In this document: in pieces, positions 1 to 62,757 of the stretch
Position numbering within the stretch: position 1 is the stretch's first letter
Layout of the letters: each line of letters opens with the position of its first letter
Assembly (NCBI GenBank): GCA_963754945.1
Contig: CAVWIG010000029.1
Span: 1-64,000 of the forward strand
Reading direction: 5' to 3'
Length of the DNA stretch: 64,000 nt
Source of the DNA: Methanotrichaceae archaeon
Lineage (GTDB): Archaea > Halobacteriota > Methanosarcinia > Methanotrichales > Methanotrichaceae
The notes under the pieces: model-generated
Database searches by the model: none
What the model saw: only the letters and a program-made list of their open reading frames with translations
Told to the model about the DNA's origin: nothing
Translations under genes and position numbers: made by a program

Positions 1-241
1 TAATCACGATGTCAATGTTCGGACGACCTCCGCGGCTAGTTTTATTTTTGTATATCAATGGTTCCAAAAATCTGAAACGCTCCCAATTGATCAACGATCC
101 GATCTCGGATAGATCATCTCCGAGGGCTTTTACTCGAGCATATTCTGCTCGAATGGCAAAATCAATGAGAGTCCTCATGCATTATATTATAGTATTAATA
201 GTATATAAGTATTTCGATTGATTAGTTTTTCGAAACTCTCA
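1..241 (-). mobile_element. IS5-family element, partial copy (left end and 5' part of transposase), runs off window edge
   Basis: Reverse complement of the start of the IS at 12320-13606; terminal repeat TCGAAACTCTCA ends at 241. Confidence 0.9.
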
Positions 242-545
242 TGAGATGTAGAGCCTGCTTGGCGCTTTAGGCCTTTGCGAACACCTGCGCCGCGCTGCTG
301 TTCCGTAGATCTCGCTAAACGACGGCTTGCTACGCCAATGACGGCGTGCACCTCTCTTGCCGCCTCCACCCATCACTATTGAAGGCGGGCGACCGAAGAC
401 TACGCAAGATTGCATGGCGCTCTTCCAGCCCCCTTTGAGATCCGCCACCGTACAATGAAGATGGCGGTCGACGCCCTTAGTCGCGTTTAGATCTCAGGCC
501 AACAGAGCTTAATCGGCGCTCCAGCGAGACTTGTGGCACAAAGCA
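242..545 (-). ncRNA. Candidate large structured ncRNA (copy A), 3' part cut by the IS5 insertion
   Basis: GC-rich non-coding stretch with about 10 collinear motif matches to 41377-41710, including TGCACGCCGTCATTGGCGTAGCAA (327-350), 22/24 identical to 41598-41621. Confidence 0.55.
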
Positions 546-755
546 CGGCAAACTACTACTATAATCGTTATGATTATATCTAGTTTTCGACTCGACGTGC
601 AAGTTCGAACAATTGCATTTCCCGGTATCTTAATCTATGAATCTGTAAATCCGTGACTCCACAGCAACCTTCAATAGTCATTAACTCTATATCAATCGTG
701 AATGGAGATCTTCTTCATCTACCATTTTTCCAGTTTTCCATCAAGGAGGTTCTAG

Positions 756-39125: not shown

Positions 39126-39497
39126 GAATATTATTTTTTTTAGTATCATTAGAATATGTTGGTCGATACCGCCATCCACTGGATGTGCAGAGAAGCTAAG
39201 AGGGCGATGATAAGATGAAGGGTTATCCAGACTACTCTAGCTCATCGGTTAGTTCCACGTTCTTCTTTGTTCATTGCGCCTCATTGTACTGACGCGACTG
39301 TAGGTATCCTGGTAACGATCGAATCGCCCTACCAGCTCTGCAATCACCATTGGGGCCGCCAGTTTCATCCCACCACGCGCACCCATCACCTTGGTACATG
39401 AAAATGTTTATGCAGGAAGCTCCTGAGTTTCTGTTCTAGTCGCCTCAGCATCCAAGGAAACCATTGATATTTATCCTTTCAAATTCCTTCTATCTGT

Positions 39498-40331
39498 ATG
39501 CCTAAGTTGAAGCCTCCTGAAGAAGTACAAAGAGGCAGTGAAGAAGAAAGCCTGGAACCCATACCGGGCCATCCAACCTGGTCCGGCAGCATCAGCATGG
39601 GACTGGTCAACATTCCGGTCCGGGCAATCCCAATCACATTAGAGAGGAAGATCAGCTTTCGGATGCTGCACCAGAAGTGCAAAACGCCCATCTCATACAA
39701 GCTTTTCTGCGAAGAGGGAGACGAGGTTTCCAAGAGCGAGATAGCTTACGGCTACAAGCTGAAAGGACACGACTATCTGGTCTTCGACAAAAGAGAGATA
39801 GCTTCAGCAAAACCCGTGTCCAGCAAGTTGATCGAGCTTGATATGTTCATTGAATTCTTCCAGGTGGACCCGCACTACTTCGAGAGGACTTTCCTCCTCA
39901 TACCTGACAACTCGGAGAAGCCCTATGCCTTACTCAGGAAAGTCCTGGAGAAGACCGGCCTGGCAGCTATAGGTAAGGTGACCATGAGCACCAAGGAGAG
40001 AGTCGTCCTCATCCATTACTACCATAATGCCATCGTCGCAACCACCCTGCGATACCCGGACGAGGTGACGGACCCCGCGCACTATGCGGAGATAAGGGAT
40101 CTGCCGGAGGCTAACGAGGAGGAGCTAGCCCTGATGACGAAGATAGTGGATAAGCTCACGGTGGACCTGGACCTCAGCATATTCCATGACGGCTACAAGG
40201 AACGGATCGAGGCCCTGATCAAATCCAAGATGAAAGGCGAGGTTGCACAGGTGCATGAGAAGAGGCCGAAGAAGCCTGTGGCCAAGAGCATGATGGAGGC
40301 GCTGAGGGAGACGGCGGAATCCTTGAAGTGA
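39498..40331 (+). CDS. ku: Prokaryotic Ku (NHEJ DNA-end-binding) protein
   Basis: WSGSISMGLVNIPV, YFERTFLL, KPYALLR, TLRYPDEV, MMEALRET. Confidence 0.93.
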   Translation: MPKLKPPEEVQRGSEEESLEPIPGHPTWSGSISMGLVNIPVRAIPITLERKISFRMLHQKCKTPISYKLFCEEGDEVSKSEIAYGYKLKGHDYLVFDKREIASAKPVSSKLIELDMFIEFFQVDPHYFERTFLLIPDNSEKPYALLRKVLEKTGLAAIGKVTMSTKERVVLIHYYHNAIVATTLRYPDEVTDPAHYAEIRDLPEANEEELALMTKIVDKLTVDLDLSIFHDGYKERIEALIKSKMKGEVAQVHEKRPKKPVAKSMMEALRETAESLK

Positions 40332-40848
40332 CTTCGGAGTGTCGCTAAAGCTTATATCTGGTGCCTCTTATTATGAGTCTGACTTTGCATAGGCCGAGTC
40401 ACTTAGGCCGATTCACTTTTTTCGTATTTCTCTCGTAATTCTCGTCTCGCCATTTTTGACAATCCTCCAGGTTCTTCTTGGAGAATTCGGTAAGGGGAAG
40501 TAGATCCATACTCATAACATAGTCACTCCTTATTATGTCCCAGTAATGGAAGATCTGATTTAAAACCTTTTTGGTATCTGTCTTAATATTTTTATTGATT
40601 CCCTCGACGAAGCTAGCGTCCTATCCAATAGGAAACTCGCCTCCGATACCGTTAATCCTCCAGTGTCCTTCGAAATTCCGTTCCAAGAAGCCCTATTTTC
40701 TAGAATTTTGTATGATACTATATTTAAATTTTATTTATTAAAACGTATCCTGGTTGCGTAGATAAGCGTAAGATGGGTTGCCCGGACCATTAAGAAAAGG
40801 AGGTAGGATGATGACGAGACTAATAGTCCAGGCGGGAGGTGTGTCATG

Positions 40849-41172
40849 CTAACTGATGGTTGACAGGTCGGCTAGTCCGGGTTTGACGCCGTTGGGCACG
40901 ACCTTATAGATTGTACCATAGATCTTTACTTGGACGTAGCCGTCCTTGACCGATGCATCGTAGTCGTGAGTGGCCAGGAAGAAGGCCAGATCATTTGGCG
41001 TCATGTGGGTATCTTCGTTCTGCGAGATTAACTTCGAGTGTTCAGTGCTCTCGGTTACCCCAGATGCATAGCGCGCAAGTCCGAATGCAATGCAGATCAA
41101 GACGGCAAGTAAGGACGGTACAATCTGTCTCGCATCATGGTAGTTAGATAGAGCTTCAGCTAATATATACAC
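40849..41172 (-). CDS. Hypothetical small protein, possibly secreted; start uncertain
   Basis: Hydrophobic stretch followed by DLAFFLATH..DGYVQV. Confidence 0.45.
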   Translation of the reverse strand: MYILAEALSNYHDARQIVPSLLAVLICIAFGLARYASGVTESTEHSKLISQNEDTHMTPNDLAFFLATHDYDASVKDGYVQVKIYGTIYKVVPNGVKPGLADLSTIS

Positions 41173-41257
41173 ACAAGAAAAAAGTCTTCTAAGTGTTAAG
41201 TAGAATCATTGCTAAGGTATCAGTAATACGAATTCACCTCGTATAATTTATTCCAAG

Positions 41258-41292
41258 TGAAGCAACCCTGGGGCTTCAGCCCCCGAGCTTGC
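41258..41292 (-). mobile_element. IS200/IS605-type end hairpin remnant
   Basis: Minus strand reads a CTCGGGG..GAAG..CCCCAGGG hairpin ending in TTGCTTCAC, typical of IS605/tnpB right ends. Confidence 0.5.
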
Positions 41293-41399
41293 TATTCATT
41301 TGAGGGTTAGCCGTCTTTCATTTGTCCTAAAATCGGTTTCCTATCGACAACTACAAATACCTATAACGAGTATATAAGTAGTTTGCCGCTTCATGCATA

Positions 41400-41866
41400 G
41401 GGTGGCGGGTGTACCGTGGGCTTAACGTACCGATAATGCTCTGAACGCAAGGGAAAAGGTGTTTGCTCCTGAGCGGGGCAGCATACGGTGGCTCCTAGGG
41501 CTGACCGATCAAGAAATTCCTTGATGAAGAGGTGCATGCCTTCGTGGCAGTGCATTCGGCTACGAGCCTGTTGGGCTGAAATTCGGCAGAGGAAAGTTGC
41601 ACGCCGTAATTTGCGTAGCAATCTGCCGACAGGCTTAACGCTAATACACGGTCGGGGCATGACGCGGCACATGCCAAAGGCAGAAGTCGAGCACGAGGCC
41701 CTGCATCTTGCGATGATTGGGTCCCTATGAAAGGGGCGCTGTGTGAAATTCCAGTGCTGTGCCGCCTTCTAGCCCAGGCGTATAATCGAACTCTGAGCTG
41801 GGTCTGGCCTGCACACTGACAGGTTCCTTCTACAAGGGCGCTGTGGATCGGCGTTGGCCCCGCCTG
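41400..41866 (+). ncRNA. Candidate large (~470 nt) structured ncRNA (copy B)
   Basis: TATATAA box at 41371; near-continuous hairpins with G-U pairs favouring the + strand; 5' GGCGGG pairs with 3' CCCGCC; homologous to 242-557 on the minus strand. Confidence 0.65.
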
Positions 41867-42194
41867 AGTCTTCGATTTAGCTATTTTCTGGTTATCCATC
41901 TATAACCTCATTGCTCCAAAGCTCCAAAGCGAAAACCTTAAATATCGGCCATAGACGTATGATATATTGGCAAAAGTCGATACTCTGTTTTCTTGCATAG
42001 GCTTTTGCCTCCCTCCTTATTACGACACATAGCCCTTTCACGGCGCTATAAAGTCTCTTCACGGGCTTTCCGCCCCAGGTATGCGCTGTGTTTCTTGCAT
42101 TCAATCATCCAGGAAGCGTGTCATATTGGTGCTTCTTGCCTTTCTGAGGTCTCCCAAATAGCAAAAGTTGTTATCCTTTGAATTCCTCTATCAG

Positions 42195-42500
42195 TATCCC
42201 AAACTAAGCTTACCGACGAAGTGAAAAAGGCGACTAAGAAGAAACCATAGGATACATACCAGGCAAGCCAAATAGGTCAGACCAATATCAGCACGGGCCT
42301 GGTCAACATTTCTGCGAGGGCGATCCCAATATTTAGAGCGGAAGATCCGCTTTCGAATCCTGCAAATGAAGTGCAGTACACCATTTCTATCTTACAGGCC
42401 ATTTTGTGAAGAAGGGGACAAGGTTCTCAAGAGCGAGATGGCCTACTCTTGCAAACTGAAAAGGCACGGTTACCTGGTCTTCGATAAAACCCAAGAGAGA
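42195..42500 (+). pseudogene. Decayed copy of the 5' third of ku
   Basis: Aligns to 39498-39800, e.g. ATCAGCACGGGCCTGGTCAACATT and AAGAGCGAGATGGCCTAC..CTGGTCTTCGATAAA; frameshifted. Confidence 0.8.
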
Positions 42501-42512
42501 TAACAAGGCCTG

Positions 42513-43883
42513 TTAGACTATAGGAGTTAGACTTATCTTGTTCTGGTTTTCAAAAAGCAGATTGTAGGGCTCAGTCCTGGGTATAATCCCGTAAAGGCAT
42601 AAGCCGCCGTTTAGTTCGTTGACAAGGAAGTATGTATCGGCTGTGTGGATGGCCATGTTGATGCTCTCCTGGCCAGTTTTCACTACCAGAACATTTATGT
42701 CGTTGGTCTCCTTCCACTTGCGGATCATCCGGTTGGCCATCATGTTCAGGAGCTTCTTGTAGCCGAATGCAAACTCCATTGCATCCATGCCGATTATGTT
42801 GAGGATGGGCCTTCCAGTCCTCTCCCTTAGGCCATCCCATTTTTCCAACAGCTCTTTACCCCAAGCCACTAGGTCTTCGTCTTCTTCTGGTTGGGAGATC
42901 ACTACATTGGTCGGAACGAATATGTCCCGAGAGCTGAGCTGATACCCGATGCTTGGAAGTATAAAGACGCCTCTGCCGTTCTTTAGGGCGTTGGAGGCCA
43001 AAGCAGTCAGGATCTGGTAATACCTCTTGCCAACTCCGTGATCGATTTCGATTACGTTGCAGGAGCCGTATTTTAATCCGCCAGTCAGTATGTCGAGGTC
43101 GGGAATACCGGTGGAGATCCTGGACTCTCCCGGATCCGGAACCCTGACGACATCGCTGGCAATCCTTGCATCCTGATGTTCGCGGTAGGGCTCGAAGTAT
43201 CTGAATCGACCGCCGTGTAAGGTTGTAGTGTAGTTCTTCTGCCTGATCTCAACGCCTCTGAGCTTGTCCAGTCTGATCTGCCTGGCATACCTGGTTCTCA
43301 TGCCATTAGGGCTTTCTGTGCCCGAGCTTCCCATCAGCTTGAACTGATCCATGGTCACCACACCGTCGACGATGTAGTCCAAGGGCATGATGTCGGCGAA
43401 CTCACTGACAAGAATCAGGTGAATCCCGGTGTCTCGACCAAACTCGCACATGTTCTGCTCAAAGCTGTGCTGGGTATCCTCTATGAAGTGAGCTGTATAA
43501 TTCAGAACGGCGTCCCAGCTGTCGATGACAATCATTGGATTGTCCATCTCCTCAGCCTCATCGAAGAAGACCCTGAAGAAATCCAGTACCGCATCGTATT
43601 CAGAGAGCTCTCGGCTGGCGCCTTTCAGGCTCTTGAGGAGCCTGTTTTGTGTTGCGTTGATCACATTCTTCGGCGGGATTATATCGCTTATCCACGGGGT
43701 AGTGGCATAGAGACGTTGTGGATCGACTCGAGTTGAGATGTATACGCCATTCTTCTTCTCACACAATGTGTTTAAGATCTCCAGGGCTAGAGTTGTCTTC
43801 CCAGTTCCCGGCAACCCCTTTATCAAGAGTGCCTGGCCATCTTCAATCCCGAAGAAGTCTTTGATTTCCTTGGGAATGTGCAT
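42513..43883 (-). CDS. GvpD/KaiC-like RecA-superfamily P-loop ATPase (two domains)
   Basis: KGLPGTGKTT, IVIDSWD, LDYIVDGVV, KLRG, second domain ISTGIPDLD. Confidence 0.85.
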   Translation of the reverse strand: MHIPKEIKDFFGIEDGQALLIKGLPGTGKTTLALEILNTLCEKKNGVYISTRVDPQRLYATTPWISDIIPPKNVINATQNRLLKSLKGASRELSEYDAVLDFFRVFFDEAEEMDNPMIVIDSWDAVLNYTAHFIEDTQHSFEQNMCEFGRDTGIHLILVSEFADIMPLDYIVDGVVTMDQFKLMGSSGTESPNGMRTRYARQIRLDKLRGVEIRQKNYTTTLHGGRFRYFEPYREHQDARIASDVVRVPDPGESRISTGIPDLDILTGGLKYGSCNVIEIDHGVGKRYYQILTALASNALKNGRGVFILPSIGYQLSSRDIFVPTNVVISQPEEDEDLVAWGKELLEKWDGLRERTGRPILNIIGMDAMEFAFGYKKLLNMMANRMIRKWKETNDINVLVVKTGQESINMAIHTADTYFLVNELNGGLCLYGIIPRTEPYNLLFENQNKISLTPIV

Positions 43884-43897
43884 CTTGACACCGTTAC

Positions 43898-44287
43898 CTA
43901 GCTATTTTTTGCGTCCGGTGAGCAACAACATTTATTTGCCATCTTCATAAGGGCACAGATCTGGTCCGGCCTTACCTTAAAGGAAAAGTAGATTGTCTTG
44001 TCGTCACCGTCGCAGAGGTCGATATCAACGACGGGCATTGCCTCAAACTCGCCTCCTGCTTCCTCGGGCACGTGATGAGCCTCCGAAACTGCAGCCGTGC
44101 CACTCGTTCTCCACAGCTTGGCAGGTCCCACCTCGACGAACTTCACTCTTCCTTCTGACCTGAGCACCGAAAGGTACTTTATCACGGTGGTTTTGCTGAT
44201 TCCGGCTTTTTTTGCTACATCCACCGTGGTTAGCCCCACATCAGATTCCTCTATAGATTTCAATATCCTTTCCTTGTAGGATTCCAT
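43898..44287 (-). CDS. Winged-helix DNA-binding protein
   Basis: GLTTVDVAKKAGISKTTVIKYLSVL..EG. Confidence 0.8.
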   Translation of the reverse strand: MESYKERILKSIEESDVGLTTVDVAKKAGISKTTVIKYLSVLRSEGRVKFVEVGPAKLWRTSGTAAVSEAHHVPEEAGGEFEAMPVVDIDLCDGDDKTIYFSFKVRPDQICALMKMANKCCCSPDAKNS

Positions 44288-62670: not shown

Positions 62671-62757
62671 TGCGTCGACCGGGATTCGAACCCGGGTTGT
62701 AGGCTTGCTTCGCAAACGCATGGAAGGCCCAAGTCATGGCCACTAGACCATCGACGC
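62671..62757 (-). tRNA. tRNA-Gly(TCC) with a 15-nt intron (62706-62720)
   Basis: GCGTCGA...TCGACGC-A acceptor; TGGGC-CTTCCA-[TGCGTTTGCGAAGCA]-A-GCCTA; GGTTCGAATCC. Confidence 0.93.

What the first reader, a model, noticed from the sequence alone, without database searches (positions are those of the whole stretch)
41371..41866. Unannotated ~470-nt ornate structured RNA with a diverged second copy in the same window
Seen: a TATATAA box (41371) precedes a GC-rich non-coding tract built almost entirely of stems. Examples are CGGTGGCTC/GGGCTGACCG, ATCAAG/CTTGAT, GGTGCATGCC/GGCAGTGCATT, nested GAGCCTGT..TCGGCAGA..GTTGCACGC / GCGTAGCAAT..TCTGCCGA..ACAGGCTT, GGCATG/CATGCC, GCCCAG/CTGGGT and GGCCTG/CAGGTT. 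The ends pair (GGCGGG 41404 with CCCGCC 41859). The reverse complement of 242-557 shares motifs in the same order: AGTAGTTTGCCG, CCGATwAwGCTCTG, TACGGTGGC, GAAGAG..CATGC, TTCGG, a 22/24 match TGCACGCCGTmATTkGCGTAGCAA, CGCGGC, CAAAGGC, AGGCyCTrCATCT. The sequence between these blocks has diverged. Short conserved blocks with variable stems and a retained CCGA/TCGG pairing suggest structure under selection rather than a recent duplication. By eye it lacks the signatures of RNase P, SRP, tmRNA or group I/II introns. Inference: a possibly undescribed family of large archaeal ncRNAs (ribozyme, guide or mobile RNA).
Basis: partly seen in the sequence, partly recalled or inferred. Interest (0 to 1): 0.9.

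Follow-up and report, generated by a model that had tools for sequence, protein, structure and literature searches.

The report
Abundant unannotated structured RNA of Methanothrix
This is a real gene for a roughly 475-base, intricately folded, very highly expressed non-coding RNA that belongs to an undescribed multi-copy family found only in the acetate-eating methanogens of the Methanothrix group, and nobody yet knows what it does.

Summary
Window 41394-41870 (+) is a non-coding, GC-richer island behind a conserved promoter block. It matches no Rfam 15 family, even at E<=10.

It belongs to a multi-copy family. This genome has a third copy (84% identical, another contig).

BLAST finds the family in 71 of 104 other genomes of the same family and in 0 of 196 genomes of seven sister families. 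A core covariance model gives 66/104, and 0/76 outside. Record titles name Methanothrix, Methanosaeta or Methanotrichaceae.

Covariation supports a 22-helix structure: 95.7% of cells are paired against 36-44% for slid partners. In the core, 27 of 31 pairs show compensatory changes. There is no coding signal.

Contigs from four metatranscriptomes cover only the RNA, at summed depths up to 4x10^5, and not the equally conserved promoter. Paralogues are ancient lineages, not a recent burst.

Function is unknown. My best guess is a trans-acting protein-binding RNA.

The parts
41341..41393 (+). Conserved promoter block of copy A. It holds two TATA-like boxes (about 41356-41367 and 41371-41377) and the conserved TAGTTTGCCGCTTCAT stretch just before the RNA start.
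   Evidence: Column identity is 0.93 from 41341 on, against 0.41-0.59 upstream, in 31 loci. No RNA contig covers 41323-41363 in any of 4 runs, although the block is as conserved as the RNA. A pattern drawn from this block occurs only 3 times in the genome, before copies A, B and C.
41394..41870 (+). Copy A of the roughly 475-nt structured RNA (ends approximate). Domain I is a long multi-branched stem with variable apical hairpins plus the conserved arm 41516-41654. Then comes a middle domain, then a 3' domain (about 41768-41870) made of a closing stem and a three-way junction.
   Evidence: RNA contigs cover only 41364-41896 (bins; longest pieces run 41401-41858). The 22-helix model is 95.7% paired. 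The core model R1 hits 41516-41654 at 137.5 bits. The 3' domain folds as a stem plus three-way junction in 5 diverse members. Strand: 95.7% paired on + against 81.7% if read on the opposite strand.
41925..41968 (+). Second promoter-like block (GCGAAAAC-CTTAAATAT..GTATGATATATT) for the small downstream unit.
   Evidence: It is conserved in position and sequence in most loci.
41969..42032 (+). Small hairpin unit ('sRNA2'): stem GGCAAAAG/CTTTTGCC followed by the tail TCCCTCCTTATTA. Relatives also carry CCCTCC in the loop. This is a likely anti-Shine-Dalgarno-like small RNA.
   Evidence: An inverted repeat lies at 41969-41981/41997-42009. The start motif follows 27 of 33 and 55 of 75 RNA copies at 41-103 nt. 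No RNA contig was laid on it, so its expression is not shown.
539..589 (-). Promoter block of copy B (ACTAGATATAATCATAACGATTATAGTAGTAGTTTGCCG).
   Evidence: It aligns with the promoter of A and C. It is also a hit to the promoter pattern.
241..538 (-). Copy B: the 5' roughly 300 nt of a diverged 'B-type' paralogue, truncated at its 3' side.
   Evidence: nhmmer places it at 589-320 with E=2.9e-10. R1 hits 295-436 at 54.3 bits. Orthologues in two sister genomes (L112, L113) run on for about 170 nt where the window switches to IS sequence.
1..240 (-). End of a multi-copy IS element, with the start of a transposase ORF at 178-2. It interrupts copy B and ends the contig.
   Evidence: Window 1-240 matches more than 45 places in the genome at 98-100% identity.

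Best explanation
Shown (about 0.95 sure): window 41394-41870 (+) is an independent gene for a non-coding RNA of about 475 nt.
- It is transcribed from its own strongly conserved archaeal promoter.
- It folds into a conserved multi-domain structure: a branched 5' domain with replaceable apical hairpins, a conserved nested hairpin arm, and a 3' stem closing a three-way junction.
- It is very abundant in natural Methanothrix populations.
- It is one of three paralogues in this genome (A intact, C intact on another contig, B broken by an IS).
- It belongs to a family of old paralogue lineages, with 1-7 core-model matches per genome, seen only in Methanotrichaceae.

Inferred (about 0.4 sure, the best of several options): it acts in trans as the RNA core or scaffold of an abundant ribonucleoprotein, a protein-binding or protein-sequestering RNA. 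It would not be a cis-regulator, a mobile-element RNA or a messenger. Three features are the candidate protein or tertiary contact sites:
- invariant unpaired stretches at junctions;
- a two-hairpin module carrying GGRCGCUGUG that occurs twice in each molecule, 102 nt apart in copy A;
- hairpins that can be deleted or swapped without loss of the core.

Many gene copies with one special promoter would serve high dosage and some specialisation.
For: - No known family: Rfam finds only two tRNAs in the window, nothing at E<=10 on 41250-42000, and nothing at E<=1 on 8 other members. RNase P RNA and SRP RNA are elsewhere in the genome.
- Family size: BLAST finds it in 72 of 105 genomes of the family, with up to 9 matches per genome. 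The core model R1 finds it in 67 of 105. 73 full-length copies average 79% pairwise identity, range 65-98%.
- Structure, full length: 123 pairs on 71 sequences are 95.7% paired against 36-44% for slid partners. 34 pairs show changes on both sides against 21.0+-2.9 in shuffles (0/500). 154 such cells against 48.5+-8.2.
- Structure, core, with about 20 diverged copies added: 27 of 31 pairs are compensatory, 155 cells against 43.7+-6.9, and 89.3% paired against 27-46%.
- Whole hairpins are cleanly deleted in some copies. B-type copies rebuild the 3' closing stem from different sequence.
- Not coding: 3.5-7.3 stops per frame, only 28 of 190 gap spans are multiples of 3, and variability shows no 3-base periodicity.
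- Strand: 6 conserved G.U pairs, and 95.7% against 81.7% paired on the two strands.
- Expression: 4 of 4 metatranscriptome runs from 4 studies cover only the RNA, with summed word depth up to 4.4e5. Coverage is zero over 41200-41363 and 41897-42400, although the promoter block is as conserved as the RNA.
- Trans-acting and not mobile: no conserved neighbouring ORF in 31 loci. Only 3 of 21 genomes with two or more copies have them monophyletic. No terminal inverted repeats. 0 hits in viral contigs and in plasmids.
- Repeated module: 41720-41743 and 41822-41845 are 75% identical.
Against: - No protein partner is identified. The one recurrent upstream gene (DUF1699, in 10 of 31 loci) is present in 105 of 105 genomes, including those without the RNA, so it does not track the RNA.
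- The single-sequence folding energy is ordinary (z=-1.07; 3' domains range from z=+0.69 to -2.35).
- The structure was derived from the same alignments on which it was counted. The core alignment was fitted to the model, and related sequences can beat shuffles without any structure. The counts are therefore not probabilities.
- The middle domain and the fate of the 5' tail are unresolved.
- Logan contigs cannot show strand, exact ends or true level. The depths sum all relatives at 90% likeness or more, so they measure the family in a community, not this gene.
- No transcript was seen for the neighbouring small unit.
Confidence: 0.6

Rival explanations
1. It works through its own fold. It would be a ribozyme, or a self-assembling architectural RNA that forms homo-oligomers as reported for other ornate large RNAs, with little or no protein.
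For: It is large, with many invariant unpaired nucleotides at junctions, UUCG-type loops, and a conserved core with dispensable periphery. Abundance is very high. No partner gene is conserved beside it.
Against: No substrate, cleavage-site signature or processing junction was seen. The few joints in RNA contigs match hairpin-length differences between copies. No similarity to any ribozyme or large-RNA model in Rfam. Many diverged paralogues are unusual for a single catalytic function.
Confidence: 0.15
2. It forms a functional pair with the small CCUCC-bearing hairpin RNA encoded 60-100 nt downstream. It could be its sponge, chaperone or co-regulated partner in a module that controls translation initiation.
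For: The small unit's start motif follows 27 of 33 and 55 of 75 copies, and 55 of the 79 motif occurrences in 1.16 Mb lie right behind a copy. The small unit carries two CCCUCC motifs complementary to GGAGG-type ribosome binding sites.
Against: Similar hairpin units also occur away from the large RNA in this genome: at least 5 further CCUCC-type copies. 6 of 33 and 20 of 75 copies lack the motif. By eye I found no clear complementarity between the two RNAs. Nothing was laid on the small unit in RNA runs.
Confidence: 0.12
3. It is the RNA of a mobile or defence-related element: a non-autonomous transposon, a guide RNA of a nuclease or recombinase encoded elsewhere, or a provirus remnant.
For: It is multi-copy, with sharp conservation boundaries. 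Copies sometimes cluster within 1-10 kb. The surroundings of copy A are a mosaic of repeated segments, and copy B abuts an IS.
Against: Copies are 65-88% alike, not near-identical. Paralogue lineages are shared between genomes, and only 3 of 21 multi-copy genomes are monophyletic. No terminal inverted repeats. No adjacent nuclease, transposase or reverse transcriptase is conserved. 0 matches in 2.9 million viral contigs and in 72,556 plasmids. The IS next to B is an unrelated insertion that broke it.
Confidence: 0.08
4. It is not an RNA gene. It would be decayed protein-coding sequence or a conserved DNA element, and the RNA reads would be read-through or DNA carry-over.
For: Stop-free stretches of 68-160 codons exist by chance in this GC-richer tract, mostly on the minus strand. 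Contigs cannot prove transcription on their own.
Against: All six frames carry stops (means 3.5-7.3 per frame). 162 of 190 gap spans break the frame, and variability has no codon periodicity. Compensatory changes keep helices. Coverage stops at the edge of an equally conserved promoter block, which DNA carry-over would not do.
Confidence: 0.02

Closest known systems
OLE RNA (ornate, large, extremophilic RNA of anaerobic Firmicutes; Rfam family, properties recalled from the literature)
   Same: It is a lineage-restricted, roughly 500-600-nt, ornately structured non-coding RNA with many conserved unpaired nucleotides. It is among the most abundant transcripts of strict anaerobes, and its function was long unknown. 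It is known to work as a ribonucleoprotein, which is the model I favour here.
   Different: No sequence or structure match (cmscan against all Rfam families). OLE is bacterial, single-copy and sits in a conserved operon with its partner protein genes. This RNA is archaeal, has several diverged paralogues per genome, each with its own promoter, and has no conserved neighbour gene.
GOLLD, ROOL and raiA-type large structured RNAs of bacteria and phages (Rfam families; properties recalled)
   Same: Large size, complex conserved folds with dispensable peripheral hairpins, unknown biochemical function, and discovery by comparative genomics.
   Different: No Rfam match. Those RNAs are often phage- or prophage-borne, whereas this one has 0 hits in viral contigs. 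This one is restricted to one archaeal family.
Archaeal housekeeping RNAs: RNase P RNA (RF00373) and SRP RNA (RF01857)
   Same: Stable, abundant, structured archaeal RNAs of 300-450 nt, each with its own promoter, acting in trans as RNP cores.
   Different: Both are found elsewhere in this genome at 208.6 and 180.7 bits. The element does not match either model. It is multi-copy and confined to one family instead of universal.
Protein-sequestering regulatory RNAs with paralogues (6S RNA, CsrB/CsrC; recalled)
   Same: Abundant trans-acting RNAs whose repeated motifs bind a protein. Paralogous copies are common.
   Different: This RNA has neither the rod-like open-promoter mimic of 6S nor an array of many GGA hairpins. 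The only repeat seen is a two-hairpin module present twice. No archaeal counterpart is known, and no partner protein is identified.
For the downstream small unit only: small RNAs with C-rich anti-Shine-Dalgarno motifs, such as sRNA41 of Methanosarcina mazei (recalled, not checked in a paper here)
   Same: A short hairpin RNA carrying two CCUCC-type motifs that could mask ribosome binding sites.
   Different: No homology was tested. Expression of the unit was not shown here.

Membership tests
Archaeal RNase P RNA (RF00373) | Match to the family covariance model (conserved core helices and the P4 region). | tested here: not met
   No Rfam match at the gathering score or at E<=10 on 41250-42000. 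The genome's RNase P RNA is at G000:C10:32077-32378, 208.6 bits.
Archaeal SRP RNA (RF01857) | Match to the family covariance model. Normally one gene per genome. | tested here: not met
   No match on the element. The SRP RNA is at G000:C18:123506-123821, 180.7 bits. The element has 3 copies in this genome.
Group I / group II introns | Match to the intron models (catalytic core, domain V) and insertion within a host gene, with or without an intron ORF. | tested here: not met
   No Rfam match for this copy or for 8 others. The element has its own promoter and lies between genes. No flanking split gene or reverse-transcriptase ORF in 31 loci.
OLE / GOLLD / ROOL / HEARO / raiA large RNAs | Match to the respective Rfam covariance model. 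| tested here: not met
   cmscan against all 4227 Rfam 15 families returned nothing on the element.
Guide RNAs of transposon-encoded nucleases or recombinases (TnpB/IscB omega RNA, IS110 bridge RNA) | Encoded at the end of, or next to, the gene of the partner protein within an IS element. | tested here: not met
   ORFs were listed in 31 loci with 1.5-kb flanks; tblastn with four upstream ORFs found DUF1699 in 10 of 31, and by inspection no nuclease, recombinase or transposase gene recurs. The IS beside copy B is an insertion into it.
Non-autonomous transposon (MITE-like repeat) | Terminal inverted repeats and target-site duplications. | tested here: not met
   No inverted repeat joins the two ends of the conserved unit in window 41280-42120. 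Target-site duplications were not examined.
Non-autonomous transposon (MITE-like repeat) | Near-identical copies from recent bursts, clustering by genome. | tested here: not met
   Copies are 65-98% alike with a mean of 79%. Only 3 of 21 multi-copy genomes have monophyletic copies.
Structured non-coding RNA gene (generic) | Base pairs kept by compensatory changes among homologues. | tested here: met
   34 of 123 pairs (full length) and 27 of 31 pairs (core, with diverged copies) show changes on both sides. Both exceed all 500 shuffles and all slid controls.
Structured non-coding RNA gene (generic) | Transcribed as a discrete unit, without coding signal. | tested here: met
   RNA contigs in 4 of 4 runs cover only 41364-41896. 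No open frame, frame-keeping indels or periodicity. Exact ends and strand are not shown by contigs. Strand is inferred from G.U pairs and promoter position.
Protein-binding RNP scaffold (the favoured mechanism) | A specific protein partner. | not testable with these tools
   No conserved neighbour gene. DUF1699 does not track the RNA: it is in 105 of 105 genomes. This needs a pull-down experiment.

The most novel reading that the evidence does not exclude
The Methanothrix lineage, arguably among the largest biological sources of methane, runs on a previously unseen class of large RNA machine. This would be a roughly 475-nt catalytic or self-assembling RNA, or the core of a new RNP, made at near housekeeping-RNA levels from several specialised paralogous genes, and needed for a lineage-specific trait such as life at very low acetate, filament or sheath biology, or dormancy.
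Probability: 0.2. Interest if true: 0.95.

Novelty: categorically new. Interest (0 to 1): 0.85.

Why it matters
Large, ornate non-coding RNAs with conserved tertiary-looking architecture are rare. Almost every one that has been studied proved to be a ribozyme, a riboswitch or the core of an important RNP, and, as far as I recall, hardly any come from archaea.

This one is confined to Methanothrix/Methanosaeta, the specialist acetate-using methanogens of wetlands, rice fields, sediments and digesters. Judging from four metatranscriptomes, it is among their most abundant transcripts. Annotation pipelines do not see it, so its reads are probably discarded or left unassigned in environmental transcriptomics.

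It gives a concrete, testable object for archaeal RNA biology: a defined gene, a structure model, about 190 homologues (150 listed plus 43 more core-model matches) and natural paralogue variation. It could also serve as a sensitive marker of active Methanothrix.

Tried and rejected
- Thermodynamic test: the MFE of copy A is no better than shuffles (z=-1.07). I did not use it as evidence for structure.
- Plain mutual information with APC correction was dominated by clade-splitting signal and was dropped in favour of pair counts with controls.
- The RNAalifold consensus missed or mis-paired several helices. For example it chose CUUG/CAGG over the covarying CAAGG/CCUUG, so I curated a manual model.
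- A stretch on contig C14 that sits between the same upstream and downstream repeats as copy A is unrelated, probably coding, sequence and not a fourth copy.
- DUF1699 as partner protein: rejected. It lies upstream in 10 of 31 loci, which are probably orthologous, but is present in 105 of 105 genomes including those without the RNA.
- A small ORF on the opposite strand of the downstream unit (SD plus ATG in the consensus): rejected. By eye on 18 of 89 aligned units shown, the ATG is not conserved.
- Kink-turn, C/D-box-like or kissing-loop motifs sought by eye were not conserved across copies.
- Ends pairing against the 3' stem: both are about 94-99% canonical, so A3 alone does not decide. The B-type copies favour the 3' stem.
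- No RNA contig was laid on 41897-42400, which includes the small downstream unit. This is no evidence of silence.
- The depth gradient along the RNA follows cross-species conservation and was not read as processing.
- The sigma-70 promoter and intrinsic terminator scan found nothing, and it is not suited to archaea anyway.
- Two pattern hits in bacterial MAGs (Acidobacteriota, Cellulomonadaceae) are chance matches with no nhmmer hit.
- Literature: 8 full-text searches on Methanothrix or Methanosaeta with ncRNA, sRNA, structured RNA or RNA motif terms, on DUF1699, and on large archaeal noncoding RNA found nothing on this RNA. I saw only search listings and one passage of PMC11225162. Supplements are closed and could hold unannotated-transcript tables.
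- The earlier-findings tool was not open.
Full report
**What is in the sequence**

A TATATAA box lies at 41371-41377. It is followed by a stretch of 0.52-0.59 GC (41400-41899) set between bins of 0.38-0.43 GC. No ORF in it has any support. The stop-free stretches that occur, mostly on the minus strand, are what a GC-richer tract gives by chance.

Rfam 15 finds only two tRNAs in the whole 64-kb window. It finds nothing on 41250-42000 even at E<=10. Eight other members of the family, searched at E<=1, give only one chance microRNA hit outside the element. The genome's RNase P RNA and SRP RNA are found at high scores on other contigs, so the element is not a diverged form of either.

**Copies in this genome**

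BLAST and a profile search of the whole assembly (54 contigs, 2.97 Mb) find three copies:
- A: the finding itself.
- C: on contig C17 (245436-245932, minus strand), 84% identical over the full length.

A and C are alike from 41335 to 42297, that is about 430 nt beyond the RNA.

B is not a whole gene. Window 1-240 is the end of an IS with more than 45 copies in the genome, and the contig ends in it. Orthologues of B in two sister genomes run on for about 170 nt, with recognisable 3'-domain hairpins, exactly where the window switches to IS sequence. B is therefore a diverged paralogue broken by an IS insertion.

**The family**

- BLAST with copy A finds matches in 72 of 105 genomes of the same family, this one included, with up to 9 matches per genome and 11 of 16 genera. 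It finds none in 196 genomes of seven other families of the class.
- A covariance model of the 143-position core (R1) finds it in 67 of 105 family genomes. In a class-wide sample it finds it in 40 of 74 family genomes and in 0 of 76 genomes of four other families.
- An exact 18-letter motif scan of one genome for each of 185,579 species returned 105 stretches. Of the 80 listed, 78 hold a real copy by nhmmer. 76 of the 80 record titles name Methanothrix, Methanosaeta, Methanotrichaceae or 'Methanosarcinales archaeon'. The two bacterial hits are chance matches.
- The family was not found in viral contigs or plasmids.
- In genera where BLAST found only a short conserved piece, profile hits show a promoter block plus the 3' half at a shorter spacing. 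Shorter, more diverged forms of the RNA therefore exist.

A tree of 71 copies shows that copies from one genome rarely group together: 3 of 21 multi-copy genomes are monophyletic. A groups with an orthologue in G011 and C with one in G003. These are old paralogue lineages kept in parallel, not the product of a recent burst.

**Structure**

Seventy-three full-length copies average 79% pairwise identity. I curated a model of 22 helices and 123 pairs on a 71-sequence alignment (A3).

- 95.7% of cells form standard pairs, against 36-44% when the partners are slid by 1-3 columns.
- 34 pairs carry changes on both sides, against 21.0+-2.9 in shuffles.
- 154 such cells, against 48.5+-8.2.
- No shuffle out of 500 reached any observed value.

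With about twenty diverged copies added for the core (alignment A5, fitted to the model), 27 of 31 pairs are compensatory. There are 155 such cells against 43.7+-6.9, and 89.3% are paired against 27-46% for slid partners.

These controls are not probabilities, and the structure was derived from these same sequences. The pattern is nonetheless what a conserved RNA fold gives:
- The hairpin GUUGC(R)(Y)(R)C..G(Y)(R)(Y)AGCAA shows GC to AU at two pairs, and CG, UA and GC at the pair between them.
- Whole peripheral hairpins are cleanly absent in some copies.
- B-type copies rebuild the helix that closes the 3' domain from unrelated sequence.
- The 3' domain folds on its own into a closing stem plus a three-way junction in five diverse members.

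The helices fit the + strand better (95.7% against 81.7% paired, with six conserved G.U pairs), in line with the promoter position.

By contrast, the folding energy of copy A alone is ordinary (z=-1.07).

- The H8 hairpin, the nested arm, CCGA/TCGG and GGCCTG/CAGGTT are conserved.
- ATCAAG/CTTGAT and GCCCAG/CTGGGT are peculiar to this copy or poorly kept (68% family-wide).
- The GGCGGG/CCCGCC end pairing is compatible with the sequences (99% canonical) but competes with the 3' stem, and the B-type has no counterpart to it.
- The middle domain is not resolved.

**Not coding**

All six frames carry stops (mean 3.5-7.3 per frame). Only 28 of 190 distinct gap spans are multiples of three. Column variability is flat across codon phases, at 0.563, 0.542 and 0.559.

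**Expression**

Twenty public metatranscriptome runs hold part of the stretch. I laid four of them, from four studies of peat and freshwater. In all four, contigs cover 41364-41896 only.
- Summed word depths reach 4.4e5, 8.0e3, 3.2e5 and 2.3e3.
- Coverage is zero over 41200-41363 and over 41897-42400.

The promoter block 41341-41393 is as conserved among relatives as the RNA (0.93 column identity) yet is not covered. DNA carry-over, or recruitment of relatives' DNA, would not produce that, so the cover comes from RNA with a 5' edge near 41394-41401. One contig carries adapter-like letters directly before 41394, which is a weak hint at the 5' end.

Contigs cannot give the strand, exact ends or true level. 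The depths add up all relatives at 90% likeness or more, so they describe the family in a community rather than this gene. The fall in depth toward the 3' end follows cross-species conservation, and I do not read it as processing.

**Surroundings**

The conserved unit starts sharply about 55 nt before the RNA start. This block is long for an archaeal promoter, and a pattern drawn from it occurs only before copies A, B and C in this genome.

No protein gene is conserved beside the RNA in 31 loci with 1.5-kb flanks. A DUF1699 gene lies about 85 nt upstream in 10 of 31 loci, which are probably orthologous. DUF1699 is present in 105 of 105 genomes of the family, including those without the RNA, so I reject it as a specific partner.

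The one strong linkage is a second small unit 60-100 nt downstream. It has a BRE/TATA-like block, then a hairpin GGCRAAAGUC..GACUUUUGCC with CCCUCC in the loop and again in the 3' tail (window 41969 to about 42032).
- Its start motif follows 27 of 33 and 55 of 75 copies.
- Similar hairpin units also occur elsewhere in this genome.

I noted this unit but could not show that it is expressed.

**How it most likely works**

Shown: it is an independent, highly expressed, structured non-coding RNA gene family with old paralogues.

Inferred: it most likely works in trans as the RNA core of an abundant RNP, or as a protein-binding or protein-sequestering RNA (about 0.4). The reasons:
- It has its own promoter and nothing downstream to regulate in cis.
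- It has invariant unpaired stretches at junctions.
- Its peripheral hairpins can be swapped or deleted.
- A two-hairpin module with GGRCGCUGUG occurs twice per molecule (41720-41743 and 41822-41845), as expected for a repeated binding site.
- Several gene copies share one special promoter, which suits high dosage.

Rivals: a ribozyme or self-assembling RNA (0.15); a functional pair with the downstream small unit acting on translation (0.12); a mobile or defence-related guide RNA (0.08); and not an RNA gene at all (0.02).

**Comparison and novelty**

In size, ornateness, abundance and lineage restriction, the nearest things are OLE RNA and the other large bacterial RNAs (GOLLD, ROOL). The resemblance is one of kind, recalled from the literature, not of homology: every Rfam model fails to match.

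Eight full-text searches found no paper that describes this RNA. I saw search listings and one passage only, and supplements were closed. I therefore rate it as a new family with no assignable known mechanism. Because it sits in the globally important acetoclastic methanogens and is so abundant, I rate its interest as high.

Noticed in passing
window 41925-42032 (+); also G000:C17 about 245337 (-), C14:10597, C34:33175, C39:9851, C50:11060: A small multi-copy hairpin unit with its own BRE/TATA-like block. The stem is GGCRAAAGUC/GACUUUUGCC, with CCCUCC in the loop and again in the 3' tail, so it could act as an anti-Shine-Dalgarno-like small RNA. It follows most copies of the large RNA but also occurs alone. 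It has no Rfam match.
   Followed up: partly
window 1-240 (-): The end of an IS element with more than 45 near-identical copies in the genome, with the start of a transposase ORF at 178-2. It interrupts RNA copy B and coincides with the contig end.
   Followed up: partly
window 42171-42502 vs 39471-39800: A 330-nt stretch just downstream of the RNA locus is 72% identical to the start of the Ku gene (39498-40331, PF02735). It also matches three other contigs, and no long ORF lies on it. It looks like a decayed or repeated Ku-gene fragment.
   Followed up: no
window 40806-41263: The stretch upstream of copy A, including a 107-aa ORF with no Pfam match (40849-41172, minus strand), is a repeated segment found on contigs C14, C7, C4 and C28 at 68-83% identity. 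The surroundings of copy A are a mosaic of repeats.
   Followed up: partly
G000:C52:17002-17079 (+): A stand-alone element resembling only the nested hairpin arm of the large RNA (nhmmer E=0.02; core model E=8e-4, positions 73-115). Similar lone hits occur in G011 and G024. It could be a shared hairpin module or a related smaller RNA.
   Followed up: no
window 62671-62757 (-): A tRNA gene with a 17-nt insertion in the anticodon-loop region of the Rfam alignment. This is probably an archaeal tRNA intron.
   Followed up: no
L237, L239, L240, L242 (genera g5, g15, g3): Shorter, diverged relatives of the RNA. A promoter block and the 3' half lie only about 340-370 nt apart, so the 5' domain is reduced or replaced there. 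The 3' half is the most widely conserved module.
   Followed up: partly
family-wide: DUF1699 (PF08004) is a very conserved multi-copy gene family, with 1-20 copies in every one of 105 genomes and also in Methanosarcina acetivorans. Its function is unknown, and it sometimes sits in tandem arrays.
   Followed up: no
window 42513-43883 (-) and 43898-44287 (-): A GvpD/KaiC-like P-loop ATPase gene followed by a winged-helix regulator gene lies next to the RNA locus. This neighbourhood is not conserved in other loci.
   Followed up: no
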